A stretch of DNA of 62,140 nucleotides from Cytophagales bacterium (GCA_004293815.1 RDZD01000016.1:1-62140); one strand, 5' to 3'; positions 9,845 through 50,714 are shown, numbered from the stretch's first letter. Notes: generated by a model not told the origin, from the letters alone. A program made the numbers and translations.

Positions 9845-10246
9845 TTATTCCCAAATAATCACAAAACCAAGATTGCTAGCCAAAAATCCTTTTTCTTGCT
9901 TAAAGCTTATGGAATTTTTTGTATAGCTCATTAAAATGGGGTCGTTGTCTGGTTCAGCGCATTTCAGTGACTCAGCAGGCTTATTCTTCCAGCCCTTAGT
10001 GTTGAAATACTTTGTCATGTCATGTACCCTATTAGGCTCACCCTCAACAATTTCTTCTACTTTTTCGGCATCAATCAGAAACCTACGCTCTGTATCTTGA
10101 AGAGCAAGTACCCAAACGCCCCCTTTCTTACAGAATGTGCCGAGAGCTTGTTTCACATCAGGTACTGTTATCTGAATGGTCTTATTTTCAGCGTTGCTGG
10201 GTAAGGCCATCACAAAGAGATAAATAAGAATATAAACGATATCCAC
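9845..10246 (-). CDS. hypothetical secreted/membrane-anchored protein (133 aa)
   Basis: It has a hydrophobic N-terminus. Its stop codon directly abuts the start codon of the FkbM gene, which suggests translational coupling. Confidence 0.45.
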   Translation of the reverse strand: MDIVYILIYLFVMALPSNAENKTIQITVPDVKQALGTFCKKGGVWVLALQDTERRFLIDAEKVEEIVEGEPNRVHDMTKYFNTKGWKNKPAESLKCAEPDNDPILMSYTKNSISFKQEKGFLASNLGFVIIWE

Positions 10247-39036: not shown

Positions 39037-40563
39037 ATGGACAGTTGGACTTATACAATCAAACAACTTTTTTTACTTCTCGCTTCGCTTTTAATAGCTT
39101 GCTTGGCTCAGGCTCAATCAGCAGAGGGCAACAAGCTAATTTTTTTAATCGGAAAACCCAAGAGTGATGCCAACTTGCAAAGCTTTATGCAAGCCTTAGG
39201 GACTCCCAGCCCTTCTTTGAGCACTCCCCAAGCTATGGTTTATCCTGACAAAGGTGTCAAGCTGATGTTTTATAAAGATCAGCTTTTATCTAAGATTTAT
39301 CTTTTTGGAAGCAGTTTTACTGTCAATGAAACTTCCTTTAAAGCCTATCAGGGCAAACTCCCTGAACGTGTGACGTTTATTGATACTAAAGAGACCCTCA
39401 TTCTCAAGCTCGGACTCCCATCCAATGAAAAACATAAAATGTTAGAGTACAACTACTCGTTGGCCACCATGCTGTTTGTGTTTAATGGCGACCAGCTTAA
39501 ATCTAGGCTCAGTTATGTAGAAATTCGCTTCAAAAACTGCGTTGAAGGCAACTGCCAAAGTGGGAGTGGAGTTTGGCTTGACATGGACGGAAGCCGCTAT
39601 GAGGGAGGTTGGCTCAACGGCAAACGGCACGGCGATGGCAAAATTACGCTGGCAAATGGGAAAATATATGAAGGTTATTGGGAAAATGGAAAGTTTAAAG
39701 GCAAAAACTTTTTTAAAACAAACAACCTCTACGACCTGTTAGGAAAACACAAAGACAGTAAGACAGTTATAGATCTCACACAAAGCCACAAAGACGGCTA
39801 CCAAAAATTCCAGATGGCTTTTGATTATATGCGCTATGCTTTTTCGCAGGATCGTTTGCTGCTTTATTTTGATGACTATGGCTTTCTATACAAAATTCAT
39901 ATCTTTAAAATAGGTTTCAAAGATTTTTCACATGCCCTCACCAACAAAATCAAGGTGGCAGGCGATATGAGCTACGTCCACTATGTGATGGGAAAGCCCG
40001 TGCGTGAAGAAAAATCTGGCTTTGGCACTCTCTGGTACTACCGCGAAGGCAGTTATGACTTACTTATTTATTTCAACACCCGCAAAGGCATAGAAAGTAT
40101 AGAAATTAAACTCAACGACGCTTATTCTGTGCTAGATCACTCCAAAGGCTTCTGTTTAAAAGGCGACTGCCAAAACGGTACAGGCGAGCAAGTAAGTGAG
40201 GTGGGTAAATATGTGGGTAAATTCAAAGATGGCAAGTTTTCAGGCGAGGGGACTCTCTATCTCAAATCAGGTGGGGTCTATACAGGCCAGTTCCTCAACA
40301 ATAAAAAACATGGATCAGGGTCTCAGAGATGGTCTGATCAGAGCTACTACAACGGCCAGTGGGTACACGGACACATACAAGGTGAAGGAGTGATGATTTA
40401 TGCTGACAAGAGCCGTTATGAGGGACAGTGGCTTGCCGATAAAAGACACGGTGTCGGCTCTATGCTTTATCCCAACGGCGATAAGTATGTGGGCATCTGG
40501 CGTAATAATGCTCCCTCTGGCGAAGGAAAAATGTACTATGCCAAACCCATAAAACAGCCATAG
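39037..40563 (+). CDS. secreted MORN-repeat protein
   Basis: A signal peptide is followed by two blocks of MORN repeats (YEGGWLNGKRHGDGKITLANGKIYEGYWENGKF, and later YTGQFLNNKKHGSGSQRW...YEGQWLADKRHGVGSMLYPNGDKYVGIW). A non-repeat insert separates the blocks. Confidence 0.75.
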   Translation: MDSWTYTIKQLFLLLASLLIACLAQAQSAEGNKLIFLIGKPKSDANLQSFMQALGTPSPSLSTPQAMVYPDKGVKLMFYKDQLLSKIYLFGSSFTVNETSFKAYQGKLPERVTFIDTKETLILKLGLPSNEKHKMLEYNYSLATMLFVFNGDQLKSRLSYVEIRFKNCVEGNCQSGSGVWLDMDGSRYEGGWLNGKRHGDGKITLANGKIYEGYWENGKFKGKNFFKTNNLYDLLGKHKDSKTVIDLTQSHKDGYQKFQMAFDYMRYAFSQDRLLLYFDDYGFLYKIHIFKIGFKDFSHALTNKIKVAGDMSYVHYVMGKPVREEKSGFGTLWYYREGSYDLLIYFNTRKGIESIEIKLNDAYSVLDHSKGFCLKGDCQNGTGEQVSEVGKYVGKFKDGKFSGEGTLYLKSGGVYTGQFLNNKKHGSGSQRWSDQSYYNGQWVHGHIQGEGVMIYADKSRYEGQWLADKRHGVGSMLYPNGDKYVGIWRNNAPSGEGKMYYAKPIKQP

Positions 40564-40808: not shown

Positions 40809-43235
40809 ATGCGTTTGGGTTGTAACATCGCTGCATTCTTAATAACTCTGTCTACTTGCCTCTTATATGTGCAGGTGGGACAGGCGCAACGTCTTTCTCC
40901 AAATAAATCCATTACACAATACGGTATTGTGAACTGGGGTGTAGACAAGGGCTTGCAATCTGCCTCTGTCTTGGACATAGCCCAAACCGTAGATGGGTTT
41001 TTATGGCTTGCCACATTCGACGGAGTAGTGCGCTTTGATGGTCATCGCTTTAAAACCTACAATAAGCAGAATACCCCAGCCTTTTTGACCAATGGCGTGC
41101 AGTGCCTGACTCAAGACCATTCAGGAACAATGTGGATGGGTCTGAAAGGTGGCGGACTTATTAAATACGAAAATGGAAAATTTAGAACTAATGCTAGTGA
41201 GACTCTAGCTACAGAAACCATTTTTTCTATTTATGAAGATTTTAATGAAGAAATGTGGTTCGGAACTTTTTCTGATGTCTTTAAAACAGACAAAGAAGAA
41301 GGTACCATCACGAAAGTGGGACATGAAATAGGAATTAACAGCGAGGTAAGAGCTTTTGCAAGAGACGAAGAAGGTAGACTTTGGATAGGAAGTACCCAAA
41401 ACGGTTTGGTGGCAGTGGACAAGGACTCCCTTGGCAAGCTTCGCGGCACACCTTATATGCAAGACCATAACATCACGGCACTTCATTATATGCCCTATAA
41501 TGGGCAACTCTGGATAGGGACTGACAAAGGGCTTTATACTATAAAAACAGTAAAAGATACCAATCCTCGCCCCTTTTTGTACAACGGAGAACCCATCTCA
41601 AGCGTTACCTGTATACACGAAGACCAAAACAGAACGCTTTGGATAGGTACAGAAAAAGGCATTTATAGACTTAGGCCCAACAGAACAGACTATATTGGAA
41701 AGAAAACAGGCTTGGCAGATGACTATGTGCGCAGTCTTTTTACAGACAATGAAGGCAACCTTTGGATGGGTACAGATATTGCCGGACTCATCCAAATAAA
41801 AGATGGTAAATTCCTGACCTTCGGTACACAAAATGGCCTTTTGGACGACATTGTCCATGCAACCTCACAAGATCTAGAAGGACGGGTATGGGTGGGTACA
41901 CAATCTGGTGTGAGTGTGCTGGATCCTCATCTTCGCACTGCCACCAACATAGATTTGAGCAAGTTCTTTAAAAACCTACAAATCAGAGATATTTATTGTC
42001 ACAATGACGGCAGAGTATGGATAGCCTCCTACGGCGATGGCCTTTTAGAAATGAAAGCAGGCGCAAAGCCTATTTTATACAATGCGACCAACTCTGGCCT
42101 CAAAGAGTGCTCTGTTAGGCGTTTGCTTTACACACCAGATGGCAAGCTTTACATGGGCACAAAACGAGGGCTTTTTGTACTAGAAGAAGGTGTCATTCAA
42201 AAAGTGGATTTGTCTCAAGCCAAATCTTCAGAATACGTCATGGATTTACGCTATAGTCCTCGTTATGGCATTATAGTCAGCACCAACAACGGTGGGGTAG
42301 TAATCATAAAAAATAATGAAATAAAAACGATTAAAGAAGAAGATGGTCTAGCTGGTTCGGTAGTTTATTGTGCTTTTGAGGACAGCGAAGGCGTACTTTG
42401 GTTTGGTACCAACAACGGCCTAACGCGCTTACAGAACGCCAATGCTGCACAAATTAACGCCACCAAAGGCTTGCCCGATGATATCATTTTCCAAATTGCT
42501 GAAGATATGGCAGGCAATCTTTGGATGACTTGCAAAAGAGGTATCTTCACCATCAAAAAAAGCGATGTGGTCAAGCTGGCTGTAAATCGCCTTGATAATG
42601 TTAAGTGTAGGCTTTATGACCACAATGATGGCCTTCGTAGCACTGAGATAACCGCCAATGGAAAAATCACAAAGCTCAATGATGGTAGACTGGCCTTTGC
42701 TACTCTTAAAGGCTTGGCATTCATACACCCAGACAGCATACCAACCAACTACAATCCGCCCCAAGTGTTCATCAACTCGCTTTTTCTGGACGGAGAAGAG
42801 ATAGAGGTAAACCGCCGTAAACGGATGGAAGTAAATGATGGGTTTGGCCGATTAACAATAGAGTTTTCTGCATTGAGCTTTGCAGCACCCTCAAAAGTTA
42901 AGTTCCGCTACAAGCTAGAACCCGTTGAGCGCGAGTGGGTAGAGATAGAAAATTTACGCCATATAGATTTTACAGGACTTTCGGGCGGGGAGTATGTGTT
43001 TAAATTACAGGCCTGTAACAACGACCAGATTTGGAACGAAGCTGGTAATTCTCTAGTGATTTATATAAAACCTGTATTTTATAAAGCTTTTTGGTTTAGA
43101 GGCTTAGTAGTAATGCTTTTAGGCTTTTTGATATTCTTCATCTGGCTTTATGGTTATAAAGTGGCCGTTTTCAAAGTCAAACGAAGCCTCATAAATGCCA
43201 AATGGTATATCAAAGAGCAACAAGATGAGGCTTAA
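40809..43235 (+). CDS. two-component-regulator propeller + Y_Y_Y domain protein (periplasmic sensor module with one TM helix; no kinase or output domain)
   Basis: A signal peptide is followed by repeated propeller blades (WIGTDKGLYTI, WIGTEKGIYRL, WMGTDIAGLIQI, WVGTQSGVSVL, WFGTNNGLTRL). The Y_Y_Y region (FRYKLEPVEREWVEI...GEYVFKLQACNNDQIWNE) is followed by a TM helix. The protein ends 28 residues after the TM helix. Confidence 0.75.
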   Translation: MRLGCNIAAFLITLSTCLLYVQVGQAQRLSPNKSITQYGIVNWGVDKGLQSASVLDIAQTVDGFLWLATFDGVVRFDGHRFKTYNKQNTPAFLTNGVQCLTQDHSGTMWMGLKGGGLIKYENGKFRTNASETLATETIFSIYEDFNEEMWFGTFSDVFKTDKEEGTITKVGHEIGINSEVRAFARDEEGRLWIGSTQNGLVAVDKDSLGKLRGTPYMQDHNITALHYMPYNGQLWIGTDKGLYTIKTVKDTNPRPFLYNGEPISSVTCIHEDQNRTLWIGTEKGIYRLRPNRTDYIGKKTGLADDYVRSLFTDNEGNLWMGTDIAGLIQIKDGKFLTFGTQNGLLDDIVHATSQDLEGRVWVGTQSGVSVLDPHLRTATNIDLSKFFKNLQIRDIYCHNDGRVWIASYGDGLLEMKAGAKPILYNATNSGLKECSVRRLLYTPDGKLYMGTKRGLFVLEEGVIQKVDLSQAKSSEYVMDLRYSPRYGIIVSTNNGGVVIIKNNEIKTIKEEDGLAGSVVYCAFEDSEGVLWFGTNNGLTRLQNANAAQINATKGLPDDIIFQIAEDMAGNLWMTCKRGIFTIKKSDVVKLAVNRLDNVKCRLYDHNDGLRSTEITANGKITKLNDGRLAFATLKGLAFIHPDSIPTNYNPPQVFINSLFLDGEEIEVNRRKRMEVNDGFGRLTIEFSALSFAAPSKVKFRYKLEPVEREWVEIENLRHIDFTGLSGGEYVFKLQACNNDQIWNEAGNSLVIYIKPVFYKAFWFRGLVVMLLGFLIFFIWLYGYKVAVFKVKRSLINAKWYIKEQQDEA

Positions 43236-43462: not shown

Positions 43463-44914
43463 TTACTTCTGCTCTATTTTGTTTAAATTACTGTGCCTTT
43501 GGCCATATACGAAATAGACCACCACACCAATCAAAAGCCAGCCTATGGCTAACATCTGTGCCAAGTAACTAAGTTTATAAATCAAAAATAGGTTAGTGCA
43601 TATACCCAGCGTGGCAATCACAGGTAGTGCTGGCACTCTAAATCCACGCTCTAAGTTTGGCTCACGCGAGCGCAAAATCCAAACTGCGCCACAAACCATA
43701 GCAAAAGCGAAGAGTGTACCAAAACTAGTCATGTCGCCCAAGACTGTAATAGGAGTGAAGGCAGCTACTAAAGACACCACAAAGCCTACCAAAATTGTAC
43801 TTTTGTACGGTGTTTTAAAATCTGCATGAATACTTTTAAAAAACTCTGGCAATAAGCCATCTTTAGCCATTCCCAAGAAAACACGCGTTTGACCTAGCAT
43901 CATGACGAGCATTACAGAAATAAGACCAGTGGTTGCTGCTGCTGTAATGATAAAAACTGCCCAAGGCATACCAGCTTTTTCAAAAGCCGCCGCCACTGGT
44001 GCTTTGAGCGCATCACCTACAATATCTTTATAGTTAATCATGCCAGTAAGAACCAAAGAAACAGCAATATAAAGAACGGTACATATCAACAGCGAAGTGA
44101 TAATGGCAAAAGGCATATCGCGTTTTGGGTTAATGGCCTCGCCTGCTTGCGTAGATACCGCATCAAAACCGATGTAGGCAAAGAAAATAGCCGCTGCGCC
44201 ACCAAAAATACCGCCTACTCCATAGGCAGTGTGCGGTGCACCGTTCTCGCCTGGTATTTCAATGGCCTCAGGAATGAAAGGAACCCAGTTAGCTGCATCT
44301 ACAGCAAAAGCACCTACAATGATGACAAATAATACAGCAGTTACTTTCAAAACCACAATGACATTGTTAGCACCCGCGGCCTCTTTGATACCTTTAACCA
44401 AAATGGCTGTTACAACCCAAACAATAACGAAAGCTGGTAAATTTAGAGCCATATCTCCATAGCTAAAAGGATCTGTAGTTAGAACCTTGGGTAGCTCTAC
44501 GCCAAACAACTTGAGTAGCTTATTGAAGTAGCCTGACCAACTCACTGCCACTGTCATAGCTCCCATGGCGTACTCTAAAATAAGCCCCCAGCCAATAATC
44601 CATGCAAAAAGCTCACCCACTGTCCCGTAGGCATAAGCATAAGCAGACCCCTCTACGGGTAACATAGAAGCAAACTCTGCATAGCAAAGTGCTGCAAAAA
44701 TACAGGCTATGCCCGCCACAACAAACGACAAGGCCAAGGCGGGGCCAGCATGATAATGCGCAGCTGTGCCCGTTAGTACAAAAATACCGCCGCCAATGAT
44801 AGCTCCTATCCCAATGGCGGTCAGGCTCCATTTACCAAGCACCCGTTGTAAGGTGCTCTTTTTCATGTCTTCTTCAAAAGCACTTATCGGCTTTTTTCTC
44901 CACATCATACTCAT
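43463..44914 (-). CDS. APC-superfamily amino acid permease
   Basis: It has twelve TM helices. The N-terminal TAIGIGAIIGGGIFVLTG signature and overall length fit amino acid/polyamine transporters. Confidence 0.9.
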   Translation of the reverse strand: MSMMWRKKPISAFEEDMKKSTLQRVLGKWSLTAIGIGAIIGGGIFVLTGTAAHYHAGPALALSFVVAGIACIFAALCYAEFASMLPVEGSAYAYAYGTVGELFAWIIGWGLILEYAMGAMTVAVSWSGYFNKLLKLFGVELPKVLTTDPFSYGDMALNLPAFVIVWVVTAILVKGIKEAAGANNVIVVLKVTAVLFVIIVGAFAVDAANWVPFIPEAIEIPGENGAPHTAYGVGGIFGGAAAIFFAYIGFDAVSTQAGEAINPKRDMPFAIITSLLICTVLYIAVSLVLTGMINYKDIVGDALKAPVAAAFEKAGMPWAVFIITAAATTGLISVMLVMMLGQTRVFLGMAKDGLLPEFFKSIHADFKTPYKSTILVGFVVSLVAAFTPITVLGDMTSFGTLFAFAMVCGAVWILRSREPNLERGFRVPALPVIATLGICTNLFLIYKLSYLAQMLAIGWLLIGVVVYFVYGQRHSNLNKIEQK

Positions 44915-45315
44915 AAACTATACATTTTTTGTTTAGGACAAGAGTAAAAATTTTTGAATCACCAAGAAATTGCCCAAAAACACTCTGTCAGGTTAGTTGT
45001 AGGGTTAAAAAAATCTGCATCAAACATAATGCTTTATTTATTGCAAAGCGTTTTTGAACAACTTTTTTTTTGGTAAAATCCTCTTTTTACCAACATTTAT
45101 TTTGCAATCGTTGCACTCAGCAACTAAAATCTCAGTATAATTTTGTATTAGTTCTCAAATTTTATTTAATTTACCCATTAACTGAGTGCAACTCTCTTGT
45201 TGTGTTTTTTGTCTTCATACCAAAATTGATTGCTCAATTTTTCGGAAAATATTTTACCACTCAGGCACTTACATACCATATTATTTTTGTCCTTATCTGT
45301 TTAAAACGACCCAAC

Positions 45316-45852
45316 ATGTTCAAATCATTCAGAATACCGACTGGACTCCTGCTTTTAATGCTAGTTTTTTCCACGTTTTGCTGTTCTCAAGTTGAACCAA
45401 ACGTATTTTCGGCTTGTTATAGGCCTGTTTACATGAAACTTGAGGAAGTAAAAACTATTCGTATGGAAGCACCCAAAGCGATGCTTTCTGCTGATAAGAT
45501 TTACTACAAAGACAACTACATATTCATCTGTGAAAGAAGCAAAGGAATTCATGTTTTGGATAACAAAGACCCTAAAAACCCTGTTCAAGTTTGCTTTTTG
45601 AGGATTCCTGGCAGTCAAGACGTGGCTATAAAAGGCAATATTTTGTATGCAGATAATTACAAAGATCTCGTATCCATAGATATCAGTAATATCAAGGAAC
45701 CTAAAGTACTCAGCAGAACGGAGAATGTATTCAATGTACCACAGTACCCTCCGCACGGCAATGTAAAATTTGAGTGCCCTAATCCCCAAAAAGGAATACT
45801 TGTAGGTTGGGAAGAAATCCCTTTAAACAGCAAAGTGGATTGTTTCCGTTAA
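45316..45852 (+). CDS. LVIVD-repeat lipoprotein (2 repeats)
   Basis: A signal peptide with Cys (FSTFCCSQ) is followed by two LVIVD-type repeats (YIFICERSKGIHVLDNKDPKNP, ILYADNYKDLVSIDISNIKEPK). Confidence 0.6.
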   Translation: MFKSFRIPTGLLLLMLVFSTFCCSQVEPNVFSACYRPVYMKLEEVKTIRMEAPKAMLSADKIYYKDNYIFICERSKGIHVLDNKDPKNPVQVCFLRIPGSQDVAIKGNILYADNYKDLVSIDISNIKEPKVLSRTENVFNVPQYPPHGNVKFECPNPQKGILVGWEEIPLNSKVDCFR

Positions 45853-45908
45853 AAAAGTCTTGAAGTCAATTTTTAAAAAATTTATACTCAATAAATCTCT
45901 AAAAAAAC

Positions 45909-46697
45909 ATGAACTCATTCATAAAAAACATCAGAGCAACGGTCATGTTGGCCTTTCTACTAGGCTCATTGGCAGCTTGCGATTCGCAAGGAGAAGGAGA
46001 CTACATGAGCCCACCTGAGCGAAGCGACAACACAGGAGAAGCTGGCTCTATGGCGCGTTTTGGCCTTTCTGGCAACCAGCTTTATGTAGTTGGCAATGAC
46101 AATCTTAGATATTTTGATATCAGTGATCCCCGAAAACCTGTTTTTCAAAATACTATCAATCTTCCTGATGGTGTAGAAACTATTTTTCCTTATGGTAATC
46201 ATTTATTTCTGGGTACTATGAATGGGGTTATTATCATGAATATATCCAACCCTTTGGCTCCCATTATATCAAGCACATATAGCCATGTCACGTCTTGTGA
46301 CCCTGTGGTGGTGCAAAATAACTATGCCTATGTAACCATGCGCAACGGTACTGCTTGTAACCGAGGTATCAATCGCTTAGAGGTGTTAGATGTCGGCGCG
46401 CCTTGGGAACCATCTATGATAAATAGCATGGCGATGATTAACCCACACGGTTTGGGTGTTGAGGGGTCTCAACTCTTTGTTTGCGAGGGTGCTTCAGGTC
46501 TAAAGGCATTTGATATATCTACTCCTTACAAGCCTAAGATGGTTCAATTATTAAATGGCTTTGATGCCTTTGACTTGATTGTGGACAATGGTCTTTTGAT
46601 GGTTATAGGCAAAACAGGGCTGATGCAGTTTCAATACGACACAAGCCCTCAAGCACCCAATATGCGTTTGGTAAGCCGTATCAACATTGGTTCTTAA
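45909..46697 (+). CDS. LVIVD-repeat lipoprotein (about 4 repeats)
   Basis: A lipobox (LGSLAACD) is followed by four LVIVD-type repeats (LYVVGNDNLRYFDISDPRKP, LFLGTMNGVIIMNISNPLAP, AYVTMRNG...LEVLDVGAPWEP, LFVCEGASGLKAFDISTPYKP). Confidence 0.65.
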   Translation: MNSFIKNIRATVMLAFLLGSLAACDSQGEGDYMSPPERSDNTGEAGSMARFGLSGNQLYVVGNDNLRYFDISDPRKPVFQNTINLPDGVETIFPYGNHLFLGTMNGVIIMNISNPLAPIISSTYSHVTSCDPVVVQNNYAYVTMRNGTACNRGINRLEVLDVGAPWEPSMINSMAMINPHGLGVEGSQLFVCEGASGLKAFDISTPYKPKMVQLLNGFDAFDLIVDNGLLMVIGKTGLMQFQYDTSPQAPNMRLVSRINIGS

Positions 46698-46716
46698 AAA
46701 TAATTTCCTAGATTTT

Positions 46717-47439
46717 ATGAAAAAAATTGCTAATATTTTAACGTGTATTGCTCTGGTTTGTGGGTTTGTTTACGAGAATGCACAGGCCAGTGTGGGTGAT
46801 TCTACAGCCAAAGACAGCACTGGCGTTGCAAAAATAGTGTCAGGAAAGAACCTGCGAGCCATTCTATTTGTGTCTCCTATGGCTCATTTAAATTCTCGAA
46901 GCCCTGCAGTATTGCAGATAGGTGTGGAAAGACCTATAAGCAAATACGGTTCTTTGCTTTTTGAGGCGGGTTTTCTGCGGGGCAATAGCCGCATGCGCCG
47001 TTATGATACACATGTTAAGTATGGTGCTAGGCTCAGGGCGGAGTCACGCACATATATGCAGCCTATTCACGTCAAACAGCGCAGATGTAGATCTTTTTTA
47101 GGTTTAGACATGACTTTCAAGCACATGCGTCTTAATGACTGGGACGAAATTGTACCGGTAGAATCTGACCCTGACAGACTTGGCCATGAATACTTAATGA
47201 CCGTCTGGACGAGAGACTATGACACTCTTTTAGCTTTAGCATTTAAGCAAGGTGTACAGTATCAGTTCGATACGCAATTGCCTATTTTCCGAAATTTGGC
47301 GGTTGATTTTGAATGGGGGTTGGGAGCAGCCTATTTCTTTAATGGCTCAAAGCGAGGTTTTGGGCTTTTTAGAGATGCTGAGAATAAATCAGTACTTTAC
47401 GGCTCACTTGAGTTCAGAATAGGTTATATCCTTCGGTAG
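46717..47439 (+). CDS. hypothetical secreted protein, possible small outer-membrane beta-barrel
   Basis: A signal peptide is followed by alternating hydrophobic strands. The C-terminus ends in an aromatic-rich strand (LEFRIGYILR). The OMP assignment is tentative. Confidence 0.35.
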   Translation: MKKIANILTCIALVCGFVYENAQASVGDSTAKDSTGVAKIVSGKNLRAILFVSPMAHLNSRSPAVLQIGVERPISKYGSLLFEAGFLRGNSRMRRYDTHVKYGARLRAESRTYMQPIHVKQRRCRSFLGLDMTFKHMRLNDWDEIVPVESDPDRLGHEYLMTVWTRDYDTLLALAFKQGVQYQFDTQLPIFRNLAVDFEWGLGAAYFFNGSKRGFGLFRDAENKSVLYGSLEFRIGYILR

Positions 47440-47734
47440 TAGAGTGTTGTAGCAATCAAGGAGTCTATCCTACACCCAATGAGTCTGCTGATACACCTCA
47501 ATAACTGGTGGATTTTGGCAATCTTTCTATTGCAGCAGACTCTTGGTGTGAGAAGAGTAAAAAAATAATGCTTCGCTAATTTCTTTTTTGATATTCGGCA
47601 TCAATATTGCCCTTATTGATGCAAGAAATCCCATGTCCGCTAAGCTACTCACAATAACACATTTTACCAAAAATAAAAACCAAACAATGTTTAAGAACAG
47701 CAGCATATCTTATACATTTCAACAAATCAAAACC

Positions 47735-48616
47735 ATGCAACTATCTAGATTTTATTGGTTAGGACTCTTGTCGCTGTTTTTAGGCGGCTGGTATCTGGTG
47801 TTTTCTTATGCGTCGCCGCAGCCTAGCCAGACACCATATTTAGATCTCCAAACCGAAAAAAATATAGATGCTTACTTTTTGAGTGAAAATCCTCTTTCGC
47901 CACTCCAGAGTTTAGCAGCCGTGCCACAAAGAACAATGGCACTTCTCCAAACAAAAAAAGACCGCTACATTCGCTCTCAAATCAACACCCAAAATACAGA
48001 TATTTCTGATTTTGAGGCAGCTCAAAAGTTAGGCGTGTGTGCAGTAGCATGGGCGTATGCCGTTCATTATGAGCGCAGTCCTGAGAAGGAGGCCTATTTA
48101 GTTGCGGCAGAGCAGTACGCACAGCAGCTCAATTTTGCTAGCTATACCACCAATGAGCCTTCTCTAGTGGCCTCACTCAAAGATTCCCAAAATAGAAAAA
48201 ATCTCTTTTCAGCAGCTATAGACCAACTAGAAATGGTGGCTTTTCAGCTCAAAAAAGAAAAAAGAGAATATCTTTGTGCAGATGTATTGGCTGGTGCTTG
48301 GTTAGAACTTGCTTACCTACAAGTGGGTGCATACGTGTCTAGACCCAATGAGGGCATGAGACAAGAAATTATTGCCCAACAGTATGTGTTGGACGACCTA
48401 ATTTTTGCTTTGGAGCCTTATCGCGAACAACAGCATCATGGTGAGCTACTTAAAACATTAGAAAATCTCCTCAAGCTTTATCGCTCTATACCACCCCTGC
48501 CAGCTGGCTGGGAGAGTGCATCTAGCAGCAAACCTAAGCTAAACTTACAGACGGATCGCCAAATAAAAATCATATTTGATGAGTTGGTTAGTTACAGAGT
48601 AAAATGGCATTTCTAA
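47735..48616 (+). CDS. hypothetical membrane-anchored/secreted alpha-helical protein
   Basis: There is a signal peptide or anchor (MQLSRFYWLGLLSLFLGGWYLVFSYA). Alternative upstream starts lie at 47687 and 47588. Confidence 0.4.
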   Translation: MQLSRFYWLGLLSLFLGGWYLVFSYASPQPSQTPYLDLQTEKNIDAYFLSENPLSPLQSLAAVPQRTMALLQTKKDRYIRSQINTQNTDISDFEAAQKLGVCAVAWAYAVHYERSPEKEAYLVAAEQYAQQLNFASYTTNEPSLVASLKDSQNRKNLFSAAIDQLEMVAFQLKKEKREYLCADVLAGAWLELAYLQVGAYVSRPNEGMRQEIIAQQYVLDDLIFALEPYREQQHHGELLKTLENLLKLYRSIPPLPAGWESASSSKPKLNLQTDRQIKIIFDELVSYRVKWHF

Positions 48617-48776
48617 ATATCAAAGCATCATAAATTTACAAGTTGTCGCTTTGTATCCATTTGCTTATTTCCAACAGCCTTTTTATATTTGGGCGTTCAA
48701 TAATCAAAGCAAGCATACTTCGTTATGATAAACAGAATTCTATCAACTGTTTAATTATCAAGACCTCACACCACCC

Positions 48777-49454
48777 ATGACCACAAAACGTTTTTTGTAT
48801 TCTATTTTATTCCTTTTGTGCTCTTTTACCTTTGTAATCCATAGCGCACAAGCTCAAGACGATGCAGATGATGCTGGTTGGATTGAAGACCCGCTCAAGA
48901 AGCCTGCTATCTGGGAAAAACTTTTGGACAACCCCACGGACTCAGAACTCTGGGAAAGCTATGTGGGGCAAGAAATGAAAGGCATGAGCCCCAAAGAGCG
49001 TGAAAGACTAAACCTTTGGAAGCAAGAACTTATGCTTCGTCATATTTTAGACAACGAAAACGTGATTGGCATTAAAGTGAATGATAAAGCTACCGATGGG
49101 GTATTTATTGACGAGACAGCCTTTAAAGAATTTCAACAAAAGCTAAAAGATGCTCCCAAAGGTGAGAGCATTACGGTAGCAGAAATTGCTGGTATAGAAG
49201 CTATTATTATGTCTGAACAGAGTGATCTCAAAGAGTTACGCACCAATGTGGCTCAGAATTTTGTAATTCTTGAAGATGTCTACTTTGATGCTTTTGAACA
49301 GCTCGGAGTCAAGTATCTGTACTACAAAGACAAATACCCAAAAGGCGAAATAACCCAAATGAAGTGGGTGGAGCAACATGACGAAGAACTCAAAAAACTC
49401 AAAAAAAATGAGTTTGATAAGTTACGCGCTCAAATGAAAGGCAGCAATAAATAA
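48777..49454 (+). CDS. hypothetical secreted charged protein (225 aa)
   Basis: A signal peptide (FVIHSAQAQ) is followed by a Glu/Lys-rich helical sequence. Confidence 0.45.
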   Translation: MTTKRFLYSILFLLCSFTFVIHSAQAQDDADDAGWIEDPLKKPAIWEKLLDNPTDSELWESYVGQEMKGMSPKERERLNLWKQELMLRHILDNENVIGIKVNDKATDGVFIDETAFKEFQQKLKDAPKGESITVAEIAGIEAIIMSEQSDLKELRTNVAQNFVILEDVYFDAFEQLGVKYLYYKDKYPKGEITQMKWVEQHDEELKKLKKNEFDKLRAQMKGSNK

Positions 49455-49484
49455 AGTAAACAGACATAAAAACAATTTAGACTT

Positions 49485-49521
49485 GTGCGCTTGCGTTTTC
49501 TTAACCAAGCGCACTTTTTTT
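49485..49521 (+). terminator. rho-independent terminator (GTGCGCTTG-12 nt loop-CAAGCGCAC followed by T7)
   Basis: A perfect 9-bp GC-rich stem is followed by a run of seven T, 31 bp after the stop of the preceding gene. Confidence 0.8.
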
Positions 49522-49832
49522 ATTCAAGCAGGCTCTTAAAAAAACCTTTAAACGGTTTTAAGAAAACAAGTTACAACATAAAGCACCTTATCTAAAGAAC
49601 AAAGAACTTGGCATTTCTTACATCCACATAAGCCAAGATAATTCTAGGCTTATGTTAAAAAAGACGGTCTATACCAAAAAAAACTAAAAACTGTATCTAA
49701 AATTGGCTTTTGCAAATATAAAATTTATATTTGCACGTGAAAGATTTACTTTTGCACTGTTTTTTTGGACACCCAACGGAGCAAATTTTCTGGTTCACAC
49801 TTCATAAAAAAATATTACACAAAAATACCGTT

Positions 49833-50714
49833 ATGAGCGTTTTAGTAAACAAAAATTCTCGTGTGTTGGTACAGGGCTTTACAGGCAAAGAAGGTACTTT
49901 CCATGCTACTCAGATGATAGAATACGGCACAAACGTGGTGGGTGGAGTTACACCTGGACGTGGTGGCGAAACACACCTTAATAAGCCTGTCTTCAACACG
50001 GTTCAGGAGGCTGTTCAAGCTACTCAAGCAGACGTTTCTATTATTTTTGTGCCGCCTGCTTTTGCAGCAGATGCCATCATGGAGGCCGCTGATGCTGGCG
50101 TGAAACTGATTGTGTGTATTTCGGAGGGTATTCCAGTCAAAGACATGATTGCGGTTAAGGCATACATTTCAGATAAATCTTGCCGCTTGGTGGGGCCTAA
50201 CTGCCCTGGTCTTATCACGCCAGGCGAAGCCAAAGTAGGTATTATGCCTGGCTTCATACATCGCAAAGGTAGAATCGGTATCGTGTCACGCTCAGGCACA
50301 CTCACCTACGAAGCCGTAGACCAAATCACTAAAATTGGCATGGGACAGTCCACTTGCATTGGCATAGGAGGCGACCCTATCATTGGCACAACCACTAAAG
50401 AAGCCGTCCAAATGCTTATGGAAGACCCCGAAACCGATGCTATTGTTATGATTGGTGAAATCGGAGGCGGCATGGAAGCAGAGGCCGCACGCTGGATACA
50501 ACAACATGGCACTAAGCCTGTAGTGGGCTTTATTGCTGGACGCACTGCGCCAAAAGGCAAGAGAATGGGACACGCTGGTGCCATTATTGGCGGCGAAGAT
50601 GACACCGCAGAAGCCAAAATGAAAATCATGGCTGAGTGCGGACTTTATGTAGTGGAGTCGCCAGCTAATATCGGTGAAACTATGAAAAAAGCTTTAGATG
50701 CAGTAAAAGCATAA
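49833..50714 (+). CDS. sucD: succinate--CoA ligase [ADP/GDP-forming] subunit alpha
   Basis: The CoA-binding N-terminus ([14 protein letters not shown]), the active-site His region ([10 protein letters not shown]) and the ~294-aa length match SucD. The ORF-track extension upstream of MSVLVNK is unlikely to be translated. Confidence 0.95.

What the first reader, a model, noticed from the sequence alone, without database searches (positions are those of the whole stretch)
45316..49454. Co-oriented run of five signal-peptide proteins including tandem LVIVD beta-propeller lipoproteins
Five consecutive plus-strand genes all encode proteins with N-terminal signal peptides, and none has an assignable enzymatic function. 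The first two are adjacent lipoproteins built from LVIVD repeats, with 2 and about 4 repeats and each with its own lipobox. Together they would make roughly one complete 6-bladed propeller, so they may represent a split heteromeric propeller. They are followed by a putative small OM beta-barrel, a membrane-anchored helical protein and a charged secreted protein. The block sits between a permease with a 400-bp leader and a strong terminator at 49485. It is a candidate uncharacterised cell-envelope module.
Basis: partly seen in the sequence, partly recalled or inferred. Interest (0 to 1): 0.55.

Follow-up and report, generated by a model that had tools for sequence, protein, structure and literature searches.

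The report
Split LVIVD propeller lipoprotein with barrel partner
The first three genes form a cassette conserved across Bacteroidota: a seven-bladed propeller lipoprotein naturally split into a 2-blade and a 5-blade lipoprotein, followed by a small outer-membrane barrel, whereas the last two genes are an unrelated neighbouring pair.

Summary
There are five co-oriented + strand genes with N-terminal export signals. The first two pass Pfam's LVIVD threshold (26.0 and 40.9 bits; cut-off 20.2). The "five-gene module" reading does not hold.

g1 (45316-45852) and g2 (45909-46697) are the two halves of a protein that is a single ~410-450 aa lipoprotein in 44 of 79 related loci. In 35 loci it is split, and each half has its own signal peptide and Cys. 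An AlphaFold2 model of a fused homologue (pLDDT 87.9) shows a 7-bladed propeller. Blades 1-2 correspond to g1 and blades 3-7 to g2. The break lies in the only disordered loop.

The split is not a sequencing error. An independent sequencing run has the same junction, and fused and split copies coexist in some genomes. At least two fissions are likely.

g3 (46717-47439) is the conserved partner, a divergent DUF3575-like 8-stranded outer-membrane barrel. In relatives its start usually overlaps the C-half stop by 4 nt.

g4 and g5 appear in none of 80 related loci. In the closest genome they sit together on another contig.

Function is unknown. I infer a lipid-anchored heteromeric propeller working with the barrel. 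This is a new variant of a known kind, of moderate interest.

The parts
45282..45289 (+). TATTTTTG, a match to the Bacteroidota -7 promoter motif TAnnTTTG, 27 nt upstream of the g1 ATG. It is a candidate promoter for g1-g3.
   Evidence: The motif is enriched in the window (111 hits against 72 +/- 8 expected). No + strand match lies between g1 and the middle of g4. This is a consensus match only.
45316..45852 (+). g1, the N-half of the split LVIVD propeller lipoprotein (178 aa). It comprises a signal peptide with Cys22/23, a long beta-strand, blades 1-2, and a C-terminal extension ending in CFR with conserved Cys154 and Cys176.
   Evidence: Pfam LVIVD scores 26.0 bits against a cut-off of 20.2. 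It aligns to residues 13-160 of the fused 417-aa P0015 (E 9e-29). It is 50% identical to the N-half in L082. Cys23, Cys154 and Cys176 are invariant in 27/27. The identical gene is called as 178 aa in an independent run.
45909..46697 (+). g2, the C-half of the split LVIVD propeller lipoprotein (262 aa). It has its own signal peptide and LAAC lipobox, an acidic Ser/Gly-rich tether, and blades 3-7.
   Evidence: Pfam LVIVD scores 40.9 bits. It aligns to residues 196-414 of P0015 at 49% identity (E 8e-73). There are 3077 homologues in two length classes. Its mature start falls in the disordered linker of the fused model.
46717..47439 (+). g3, a small outer-membrane beta-barrel (240 aa). It is a divergent DUF3575-like protein and the conserved downstream partner of the split propeller.
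   Evidence: It lies directly downstream of the C-half in 25 loci, plus 3 more found with the family HMM. The median gap is -4 nt. Ten of 22 family members hit Pfam DUF3575, best E 1.5e-7. The AF2 model has 8 strands but pLDDT is only 56.7. The best folds are OmpW, OmpA, NspA and Ail. g3 itself has no Pfam hit.
47735..48616 (+). g4, NOT part of the cassette. It is an unannotated protein of about 293 aa with a hydrophobic N-terminus. An alternative start at 47687 gives 309 aa. It forms a separate pair with g5.
   Evidence: It is absent from 80 LVIVD loci. A family of about 201 representatives, each about 300 aa, has no Pfam or PDB match. The 56% homologue P0137 lies on another contig of GCA_013299045.1, directly upstream of a g5 homologue. 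The P0137 alignment starts at query residue 22, which favours the ATG at 47735.
48777..49454 (+). g5, NOT part of the cassette. It is a secreted, charged 225-aa protein (signal peptide ...SAQA|QDD) paired with g4.
   Evidence: It is 75% identical to the gene downstream of P0137 in L091. One 48% relative sits in a metagenome contig without LVIVD genes. There is no Pfam, NCBIfam or PDB hit. A TAnnTTTG match lies at 48684 in the g4-g5 spacer.
49485..49520 (+). An intrinsic-terminator-like hairpin (GTGCGCTTG...CAAGCGCAC) followed by TTTTTTT, downstream of g5.
   Evidence: No + strand terminator-like site lies in the g3-g4 or g4-g5 spacers.

Best explanation
g1, g2 and g3 form a self-contained three-gene outer-membrane cassette that is widespread in Bacteroidota. 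The ancestral form is a single lipoprotein of about 420 aa that folds into a 7-bladed LVIVD beta-propeller, encoded next to a small 8-stranded outer-membrane barrel. In the lineage to which this window belongs, the propeller gene underwent fission inside its one long disordered loop.

Shown:
- The N-half (blades 1-2 plus a beta-ribbon) and the C-half (blades 3-7) are now separate genes.
- Each has its own Sec/SPII-type signal and an invariant Cys.

Inferred:
- Both halves are exported and lipidated separately, then dock into one heteromeric 7-bladed propeller held on the outer membrane by two lipid anchors.
- That propeller works together with the co-translated g3 barrel. It most likely acts as a ligand- or protein-binding platform of the cell envelope rather than as a soluble enzyme.
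- The acidic residues just after the Cys resemble the Bacteroidota lipoprotein export signal, so the propeller may face the cell surface.

g4 and g5 are an independent neighbouring gene pair of unknown function.
For: Fission of one gene:
- g1 aligns to residues 13-160 and g2 to residues 196-414 of the fused 417-aa P0015.
- Of 79 classifiable genome loci, 44 are fused and 35 are split. The N-half is always directly upstream of the C-half.

A real and old split:
- Splits occur in different frames and with different gaps, from -13 to +167 nt.
- A signal peptide plus Cys is present in 34/34 N-halves and 34/38 C-halves. The other four are cut by contig ends.
- A split-specific C-terminal motif ...C[YF]R comes with two invariant Cys.
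- Both forms coexist in Dyadobacter CY261, Larkinella VNQ87, Nibrella and Sabulibacter.
- The junction is identical in an independent run.

One ring:
- The AF2 model of the fused form has pLDDT 87.9 and pTM 0.83, with 2 + 5 four-stranded blades. Its only long disordered segment, residues 172-193, lies at the split point.

Both halves under selection:
- g1 is 50% and g2 51% identical to the closest relative.
- The motifs INE and YADN are kept in split N-halves.

Barrel partner:
- g3-type barrels follow split propellers in 28 loci. A different small barrel follows fused ones in 37 loci.
- The C-half stop usually overlaps the barrel start by 4 nt.
- DUF3575 is hit by 10 of 22 members.

g4/g5 are separate.

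LES-like acidity after the Cys: compared with the motif in PMC5080379.
Against: - No physical evidence shows that the two halves associate. No co-folding could be run.
- Engineered 7-bladed propeller fragments failed to form hetero-oligomers in vitro (PMC6805158), so assembly is not automatic.
- g3 itself has no Pfam hit, and its model is of low confidence (pLDDT 56.7).
- The g1 lipobox (STFC-C) is atypical.
- The profile comparison between the two barrel families is inconclusive (hhalign probability 38%).
- The NJ tree has short, unsupported deep branches, so the number of fissions is uncertain.
- No functional clue is specific to the split cassette. Its neighbours differ between genera.
- The 80 loci are those most similar to g2, so the 44:35 ratio is not an unbiased frequency.
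Confidence: 0.6

Rival explanations
1. One reading: all five genes (g1-g5) form one uncharacterised cell-envelope module.
For: All five are co-oriented, carry export signals, and end at one strong terminator. No terminator-like site lies in the g3-g4 or g4-g5 spacers.
Against: g4 and g5 are absent from all 80 related LVIVD loci. In the closest genome the g1-g3 cassette and the g4-g5 pair are on different contigs with different neighbours. The spacers are long: 247-295 nt before g4 and 160 nt before g5. g5 has its own TAnnTTTG match.
Confidence: 0.07
2. After fission the two halves became functionally independent. For example, the 5-blade C-half works alone or as a homo-oligomer with the barrel, while the 2-blade N-half has a separate role or is decaying.
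For: Five-blade fragments can dimerise, and propeller fragments prefer homo-oligomers in vitro (PMC6805158). The C-half is more tightly coupled to the barrel (4-nt overlap) than to the N-half (median gap 38 nt). The distance correlation between C-half and barrel (r = 0.84) exceeds that between N-half and C-half (r = 0.63).
Against: The N-half is retained directly upstream in every split locus. Its signal peptide is intact and its blade motifs are conserved. It diverges from the closest relative by about as much as the C-half does, 50% against 51% identity. No C-half was seen without an N-half.
Confidence: 0.2
3. The two LVIVD ORFs are one gene broken by a sequencing or assembly error, or by a recent pseudogenising mutation.
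For: They lie in different frames, 56 nt apart, and together are colinear with single-gene homologues.
Against: g2 has a complete signal peptide and lipobox of its own. The junction is identical in an independent run, SRR12360564. The same architecture is found in 35 loci from many isolate genomes. Split-specific conserved C-terminal Cys motifs are present.
Confidence: 0.02
4. The propeller is an enzyme, for example a metal-dependent hydrolase or lactonase, rather than a binding platform. The barrel would supply or remove its substrate.
Confidence: 0.2

Closest known systems
Single-chain 'LVIVD repeat-containing protein' lipoproteins of Bacteroidota (e.g. Pedobacter alpinus P0015, Runella zeae P0086, Daejeonella P0064, Pontibacter P0110)
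   Same: They are colinear homologues. g1 is 31-47% and g2 about 45-50% identical to the two parts. They share the lipoprotein signal and the 7-blade LVIVD propeller, and they also have a small barrel gene downstream.
   Different: They are a single polypeptide of about 410-450 aa with a disordered loop where the window's genes are separated. Their partner barrel belongs to another sequence cluster. They often lie behind an ECF sigma / anti-sigma / serpin / META cluster, which the split cassette lacks.
Pfam DUF3575 (PF12099), uncharacterised small Bacteroidota outer-membrane beta-barrels
   Same: Size, signal peptide, alternating beta pattern and predicted 8 strands all agree. Ten of 22 g3-family members hit the model, and UniRef names one member a DUF3575 protein.
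   Different: g3 itself is below detection. The family has a long insert (residues about 138-170, often with a Cys pair in relatives) and is dedicated to the split LVIVD cassette.
BamB (8-bladed propeller lipoprotein of the BAM complex)
   Same: It is a lipid-anchored beta-propeller that works with an outer-membrane barrel protein. It is the top Foldseek PDB hit.
   Different: The similarity is generic (TM about 0.5, rmsd about 8 A, about 10% identity). BamB has 8 blades against 7 here, uses a different repeat family, and has no BamA context. The window protein is not a member.
Multi-chain beta-propellers: engineered oligomeric propellers (PMC6805158); Sec13-Nup145C and lectin trimers (from my own knowledge)
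   Same: A closed propeller ring is built from blades on more than one polypeptide.
   Different: Those are homo-oligomers, or single-blade donations in eukaryotic coat and nucleoporin complexes. Here an asymmetric 2+5 hetero-pair of bacterial lipoproteins, exported separately, is inferred. It has not been shown.
Haloalkylphosphorus hydrolase (Sb-PTE, PDB 5hrm/5ioj) and 7-bladed lactonase-type propellers
   Same: The fold is a 7-bladed propeller. The only PDB sequence match of the family profile is to this enzyme (E 4e-4 over two blades).
   Different: There is no evidence for the binuclear metal site or for catalysis. Identity is very low.

Membership tests
LVIVD repeat family (Pfam PF08309) | Sequence match to the 42-residue LVIVD repeat above Pfam's gathering score | tested here: met
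   g1 scores 26.0 bits and g2 40.9 bits (2 stretches); the cut-off is 20.2. Most homologues carry a precomputed PF08309 hit.
LVIVD repeat family (Pfam PF08309) | Repeats form the blades of a closed beta-propeller | tested here: met
Bacterial lipoproteins (SPII substrates) | N-terminal signal peptide ending in a lipobox with an invariant Cys | tested here: met
   g2 has ...LGSLAA|C and g1 has ...VFSTF(C)|C, which is atypical at -1. The Cys is invariant in 27/27 aligned homologues of each half. It is present in 34/34 N-halves, in 34/38 C-halves (the other four are truncated), and in 43/44 fused forms.
Bacterial lipoproteins (SPII substrates) | Actual acylation, and outer-membrane or surface localisation | not testable with these tools
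   This needs palmitate labelling or globomycin treatment, fractionation, and protease shaving. Only an LES-like acidic stretch after the Cys was seen (motif from PMC5080379).
DUF3575 / small outer-membrane beta-barrels | Match of g3 itself to PF12099 or another OMP barrel model | tested here: not met
   g3 has no Pfam or NCBIfam hit at E <= 1. The family profile has no PDB sequence hit.
DUF3575 / small outer-membrane beta-barrels | Family-level match to PF12099 | tested here: met
   Ten of 22 members of the g3 family alignment hit DUF3575, best E 1.5e-7. P0130 is named 'DUF3575 domain-containing' by UniRef.
DUF3575 / small outer-membrane beta-barrels | Closed 8-stranded transmembrane barrel fold | tested here: inconclusive
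   The AF2 model shows 8 long strands, but mean pLDDT is 56.7. The Foldseek best hits are OmpW, OmpA, NspA and Ail, with E >= 4e-3 and TM 0.3-0.4.
BamB | 8-bladed propeller with specific sequence similarity, associated with BamA | tested here: not met
   There are 7 blades. Identity is about 10% and TM about 0.5. No bamA lies in any neighbourhood.
Heteromeric (multi-chain) beta-propeller | Blades from two different chains close one ring | not testable with these tools
   This is inferred from fused homologues and strict adjacency. No multimer prediction or experiment was available.
   g1-g2-g3 are conserved together, but g4 and g5 are found in 0 of 80 loci. They are on a different contig in GCA_013299045.1.

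The most novel reading that the evidence does not exclude
The cassette encodes an obligate heterodimeric 7-bladed beta-propeller. Its 2-blade and 5-blade parts are secreted and lipidated separately and assemble only at the outer membrane, possibly on the cell surface. This arrangement arose by fission more than once at the same loop. Each propeller lineage has co-evolved with its own dedicated 8-stranded barrel. That would be a previously undescribed type of lipoprotein-barrel outer-membrane complex in Bacteroidota, and a natural counter-example to the rule that propellers are single chains.
Probability: 0.45. Interest if true: 0.65.

Novelty: new variant of a known kind. Interest (0 to 1): 0.45.

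Why it matters
Beta-propellers are almost always single chains, and attempts to build 7-bladed hetero-oligomers from fragments failed (PMC6805158). A natural, conserved and apparently recurrent 2+5 split, with fused and split paralogues in the same genomes, would be a ready-made system. It could be used to study how repeat folds tolerate fission, and how two separately exported lipoproteins find each other in the envelope.

It also defines a widespread, wholly uncharacterised propeller-plus-small-barrel cassette in environmental Bacteroidota. More than 3000 homologues were detected, and no paper was found on its function. In the fused lineage the cassette is linked to ECF sigma factors and serpins.

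In practical terms, it corrects the annotation. g1 and g2 should be treated as one functional unit together with g3. g4 and g5 should not be grouped with them.

Tried and rejected
- A direct homologue search with g3 found nothing at E <= 1e-3. A profile of 22 locus-derived sequences returned only 16 hits from one subfamily, so the g3 structure model stayed at low confidence.
- Profile-profile comparison of the two barrel families (g3 type against the fused-locus type) gave 38% probability, which is inconclusive.
- PDB sequence searches for g3 (family profile), g4 and g5 found nothing. NCBIfam had only sub-threshold 'choice-of-anchor' hits for g2.
- An Rfam scan of 44500-49900 found nothing credible, only snoR113 at E 0.21. 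There is therefore no evidence for a leader RNA in the 400-bp region.
- The sigma-70 promoter scan was at chance level, 14 found against 13 expected.
- BamB membership was considered because of the Foldseek ranking. It was rejected on blade count and on the generic scores.
- An intermolecular disulfide between the halves was considered. It was rejected because the two split-specific Cys (154 and 176) both lie in the N-half.
- The metagenome scan for g5 gave a single locus cut at its upstream end, which says nothing about g4 linkage. More distant g4-family members (P0139, P0141) lack a g5 neighbour or sit on contigs too short to tell.
- The NJ tree cannot fix the number of fission events, because it has no support values and short deep branches.
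Clustering of conserved residues and the inter-half interface could therefore not be examined.


Full report
**What is there**

The region holds five + strand ORFs:
- g1, 45316-45852, 178 aa
- g2, 45909-46697, 262 aa
- g3, 46717-47439, 240 aa
- g4, 47687 or 47735-48616
- g5, 48777-49454, 225 aa

All begin with a hydrophobic export signal. Pfam's LVIVD repeat model hits g1 (26.0 bits) and g2 (40.9 bits), against a gathering score of 20.2. g3, g4 and g5 have no Pfam or NCBIfam hit.

A hairpin with a T-run follows g5 at about 49485-49520. The amino-acid permease upstream is on the minus strand. The 400 bp between it and g1 is therefore a divergent intergenic region. It holds no Rfam match. It does hold a Bacteroidota-type -7 motif, TAnnTTTG, 27 nt before the g1 ATG. 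That motif is enriched in the window, 111 hits against 72 +/- 8 expected.

The window is the same sequence as a Logan contig from run SRR7244344.

**g1 and g2 are two halves of one ancestral gene**

Homologues of g2 number 3077 at E <= 1e-3. They fall into two length classes, about 250 aa and about 410-440 aa.

Against the 417-aa Pedobacter alpinus protein P0015:
- g1 aligns to residues 13-160 (31% identity, E 9e-29).
- g2 aligns to residues 196-414 (49% identity, E 8e-73).

In a 50-sequence alignment, g1 ends and mature g2 begins inside the gappy, variable segment of the long proteins.

In 80 genome loci fetched with a g2-family profile, a g1-like sequence always lies directly upstream of the g2-like one. 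The two are in one ORF in 44 loci and in two ORFs in 35 loci. L066 was re-read as fused.

Split loci come from many genera, including Larkinella, Dyadobacter, Arcicella, Runella zeae, Nibrella, Thermoflexibacter, Marinoscillum, Pontibacter ummariensis and Sabulibacter. They also include a Kapaibacterium MAG.

**The split is real and old**

- The two ORFs lie in different relative frames, with gaps from -13 to +167 nt (median 38).
- Every full-length N-half (34/34) has a hydrophobic signal followed by a Cys. So do 34/38 C-halves, and the other four are cut by contig ends. So do 43/44 fused proteins.
- The main split type has a specific C-terminus...P-K-C-[YF]-R. In the window it is ...VDCFR. 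Cys154 and Cys176 are invariant in 27/27.
- Four genomes carry both a split and a fused copy: Dyadobacter sp. CY261, Larkinella sp. VNQ87, Nibrella saemangeumensis and Sabulibacter ruber.
- An independent sequencing run, SRR12360564, has the same g1 stop, spacer and g2 start, with 1 mismatch in 711 nt. Its gene call for g1 is the 178-aa form.
- The closest genome, GCA_013299045.1, has the same split at 50% (g1) and 51% (g2) identity. Both halves have thus diverged by about the same amount.

**Structure**

AlphaFold2 on P0015, using the 50-sequence alignment, gave mean pLDDT 87.9 and pTM 0.83. The DSSP string shows seven four-stranded blades:
- blade 1, residues 66-100
- blade 2, residues 107-139
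- blade 3, residues 204-237
- blade 4, residues 242-278
- blade 5, residues 282-328
- blade 6, residues 335-370
- blade 7, residues 375-412

Two long strands (29-43 and 154-168) flank the first two blades.

The only long low-confidence segment is residues 172-193, which is exactly the split point.

So g1 carries blades 1-2 and g2 carries blades 3-7. The count is 2 + 5 = 7, not 2 + 4 = 6. No solved structure belongs to the family. The only PDB sequence hit of the family profile is a weak match (E 4e-4) to a 7-bladed phosphotriesterase.

**The conserved partner is g3**

Neighbouring ORFs in the 80 loci were clustered.
- The g3 family (about 235 aa) lies directly downstream of the C-half in 25 loci.
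- A different small protein (about 195-260 aa, ending in Phe, with weak OMP_b-brl hits) lies downstream of the fused gene in 37 loci.
- HMMs add three more g3-type barrels. They also show that three split loci (L028, L040, L054) carry the fused-type barrel. In the tree, those three nest among fused sequences.

Together with the different N-half termini, this suggests at least two independent fissions. The NJ tree has no support values.

In most split loci the C-half stop overlaps the barrel start by 4 nt. The median gap is -4 nt, and it is 19 nt in the window.

On the identity of g3:
- Ten of 22 g3-family members hit Pfam DUF3575, best E 1.5e-7.
- One member is named DUF3575 by UniRef.
- The g3 model is poor (pLDDT 56.7) but has eight long strands.
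- Its best fold matches are OmpW, OmpA, NspA and Ail.

g3 is therefore probably a divergent 8-stranded outer-membrane barrel. g3 itself fails the Pfam test.

**g4 and g5 do not belong**

Neither was found in any of the 80 loci (tblastn, E <= 1e-3).

In GCA_013299045.1 the g1-g2-g3 cassette lies between smpB and hisIE on contig JAAFJX010000001. The g4 homologue (P0137, 56%) and the g5 homologue (75%) lie side by side on contig JAAFJX010000005, followed by an LPG_synthase_TM gene.

g4 belongs to a family of about 201 cluster representatives, each about 300 aa, with no Pfam or PDB match. g5 has one 48% relative in a metagenome contig without LVIVD genes.

The window block is therefore two independent units that happen to be adjacent. 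Read-through from g3 into g4 cannot be excluded, because no terminator-like site lies between them.

**How it most likely works**

Shown:
- gene fission at a disordered loop
- separate lipoprotein signals on both halves
- strict adjacency of the halves
- a dedicated barrel gene in tight, often overlapping, linkage
- one-ring geometry in the fused form

Inferred:
- g1 and g2 are exported by Sec, acylated on Cys23 and Cys24, and dock into one 7-bladed propeller tethered by two lipids.
- That propeller acts with the g3 barrel in the outer membrane.
- Near-invariant polar residues come from both parts: E77 in the N-part, and E243, H279, D284, R298, N331, H333, E346 and D377 in the C-part of P0015. 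This is consistent with a site that needs both halves. I could not map them in 3D.
- Residues +2 to +6 after the Cys are acidic in most members. Fused members such as P0015 start C-K-D-E, matching the K-(D/E)2 lipoprotein export signal of Bacteroidota (PMC5080379). The propeller may therefore be surface-exposed.

In Dyadobacter, Larkinella, Spirosoma and Nibrella, fused relatives sit behind an ECF sigma factor, an anti-sigma-like protein with a C-terminal OMP barrel, a serpin and a META lipoprotein. This hints at an envelope-stress or protease-related role. The split cassette has no such constant neighbours.

**Comparison with what is known**

LVIVD repeats were defined computationally in 2004 (PMC2447325). 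In 2021 they were still listed among repeat families without a solved structure (PMC8078820). I found no functional study of this Bacteroidota family or of DUF3575.

Propellers are "almost always" single chains. Attempts to make 7-bladed hetero-oligomers from fragments failed (PMC6805158). A natural 2+5 hetero-propeller would therefore be unusual. It is inferred here, not demonstrated.

**Verdict**

The real feature is the three-gene cassette g1-g3, a new variant (the split form) of an annotated but uncharacterised family. Interest is moderate (0.45).

Noticed in passing
L048, L051, L056, L058, L060, L069, L072, L080 (about 5 kb upstream of position 10001 in each): Fused-type LVIVD genes in Dyadobacter, Larkinella and Nibrella lie in a conserved co-oriented cluster. 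The order is: ECF sigma factor; a ~500-aa protein with an anti-sigma-like N-terminus, one TM helix and a C-terminal OMP beta-barrel domain; a serpin (PF00079, E 8e-107); a META-domain lipoprotein; the LVIVD propeller; a small barrel. A related arrangement occurs in Spirosoma (L039). A membrane-spanning anti-sigma factor fused to an OM barrel, next to a bacterial serpin, is unusual.
   Followed up: partly
window 40809-43235 (+): An 808-aa Reg_prop / Y_Y_Y sensor-like protein ends about 25 residues after a transmembrane helix. It has no kinase, receiver or HTH output domain, unlike the usual hybrid two-component proteins of about 1300 aa with this sensor.
   Followed up: no
window, whole; + strand hits at 45138, 45282, 48684: The Bacteroidota -7 promoter motif TAnnTTTG is enriched in the window: 111 matches against 72 +/- 8 in shuffles, and no shuffle reached 111. 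This supports a Bacteroidota origin. Hits lie before g1 and before g5, with none in the g3-g4 spacer.
   Followed up: partly
L066 7138-10723; L035 8909-10479; L053 1882-2664 and 4047-4754: The cassette has local duplications. L066 (Roseivirgaceae MAG) has two tandem copies of fused LVIVD plus barrel. L035 has two tandem g3-type barrel genes. L053 (Arsenicibacter) has g3-type barrels on both sides of the split pair.
   Followed up: no
window 45775-45852 (g1 residues 154-178), and the 27 aligned N-halves: Split-type N-halves share a C-terminal extension, YPP..FEC..KG.V.GWE....P-K-C-[YF]-R. Its two Cys are invariant in 27/27 and absent at these positions in fused proteins. Many fused proteins instead pair a Cys at +5 after the lipid Cys with a Cys near the loop. 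This looks like a rewired disulfide stabilising the new terminus.
   Followed up: partly
L091 910-4458 (GCA_013299045.1 contig JAAFJX010000005): The g4-g5 pair of the closest relative is followed, on the same strand, by an LPG_synthase_TM gene, a CDP-alcohol phosphatidyltransferase and a methyltransferase. This is a possible membrane-lipid context for g4/g5, and it is not present in the window.
   Followed up: no
L014 17280-18743 (Arcicella rosea): A 72%-identical homologue of the window's amino-acid permease lies about 6.5 kb downstream of the Arcicella split cassette. This may be residual synteny between the cassette and the permease.
   Followed up: no
window 39037-40563 (+): A 508-aa protein with weak MORN-repeat hits lies upstream of the Y_Y_Y protein. 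It was seen only in the gene table of the matching Logan contig.
   Followed up: no
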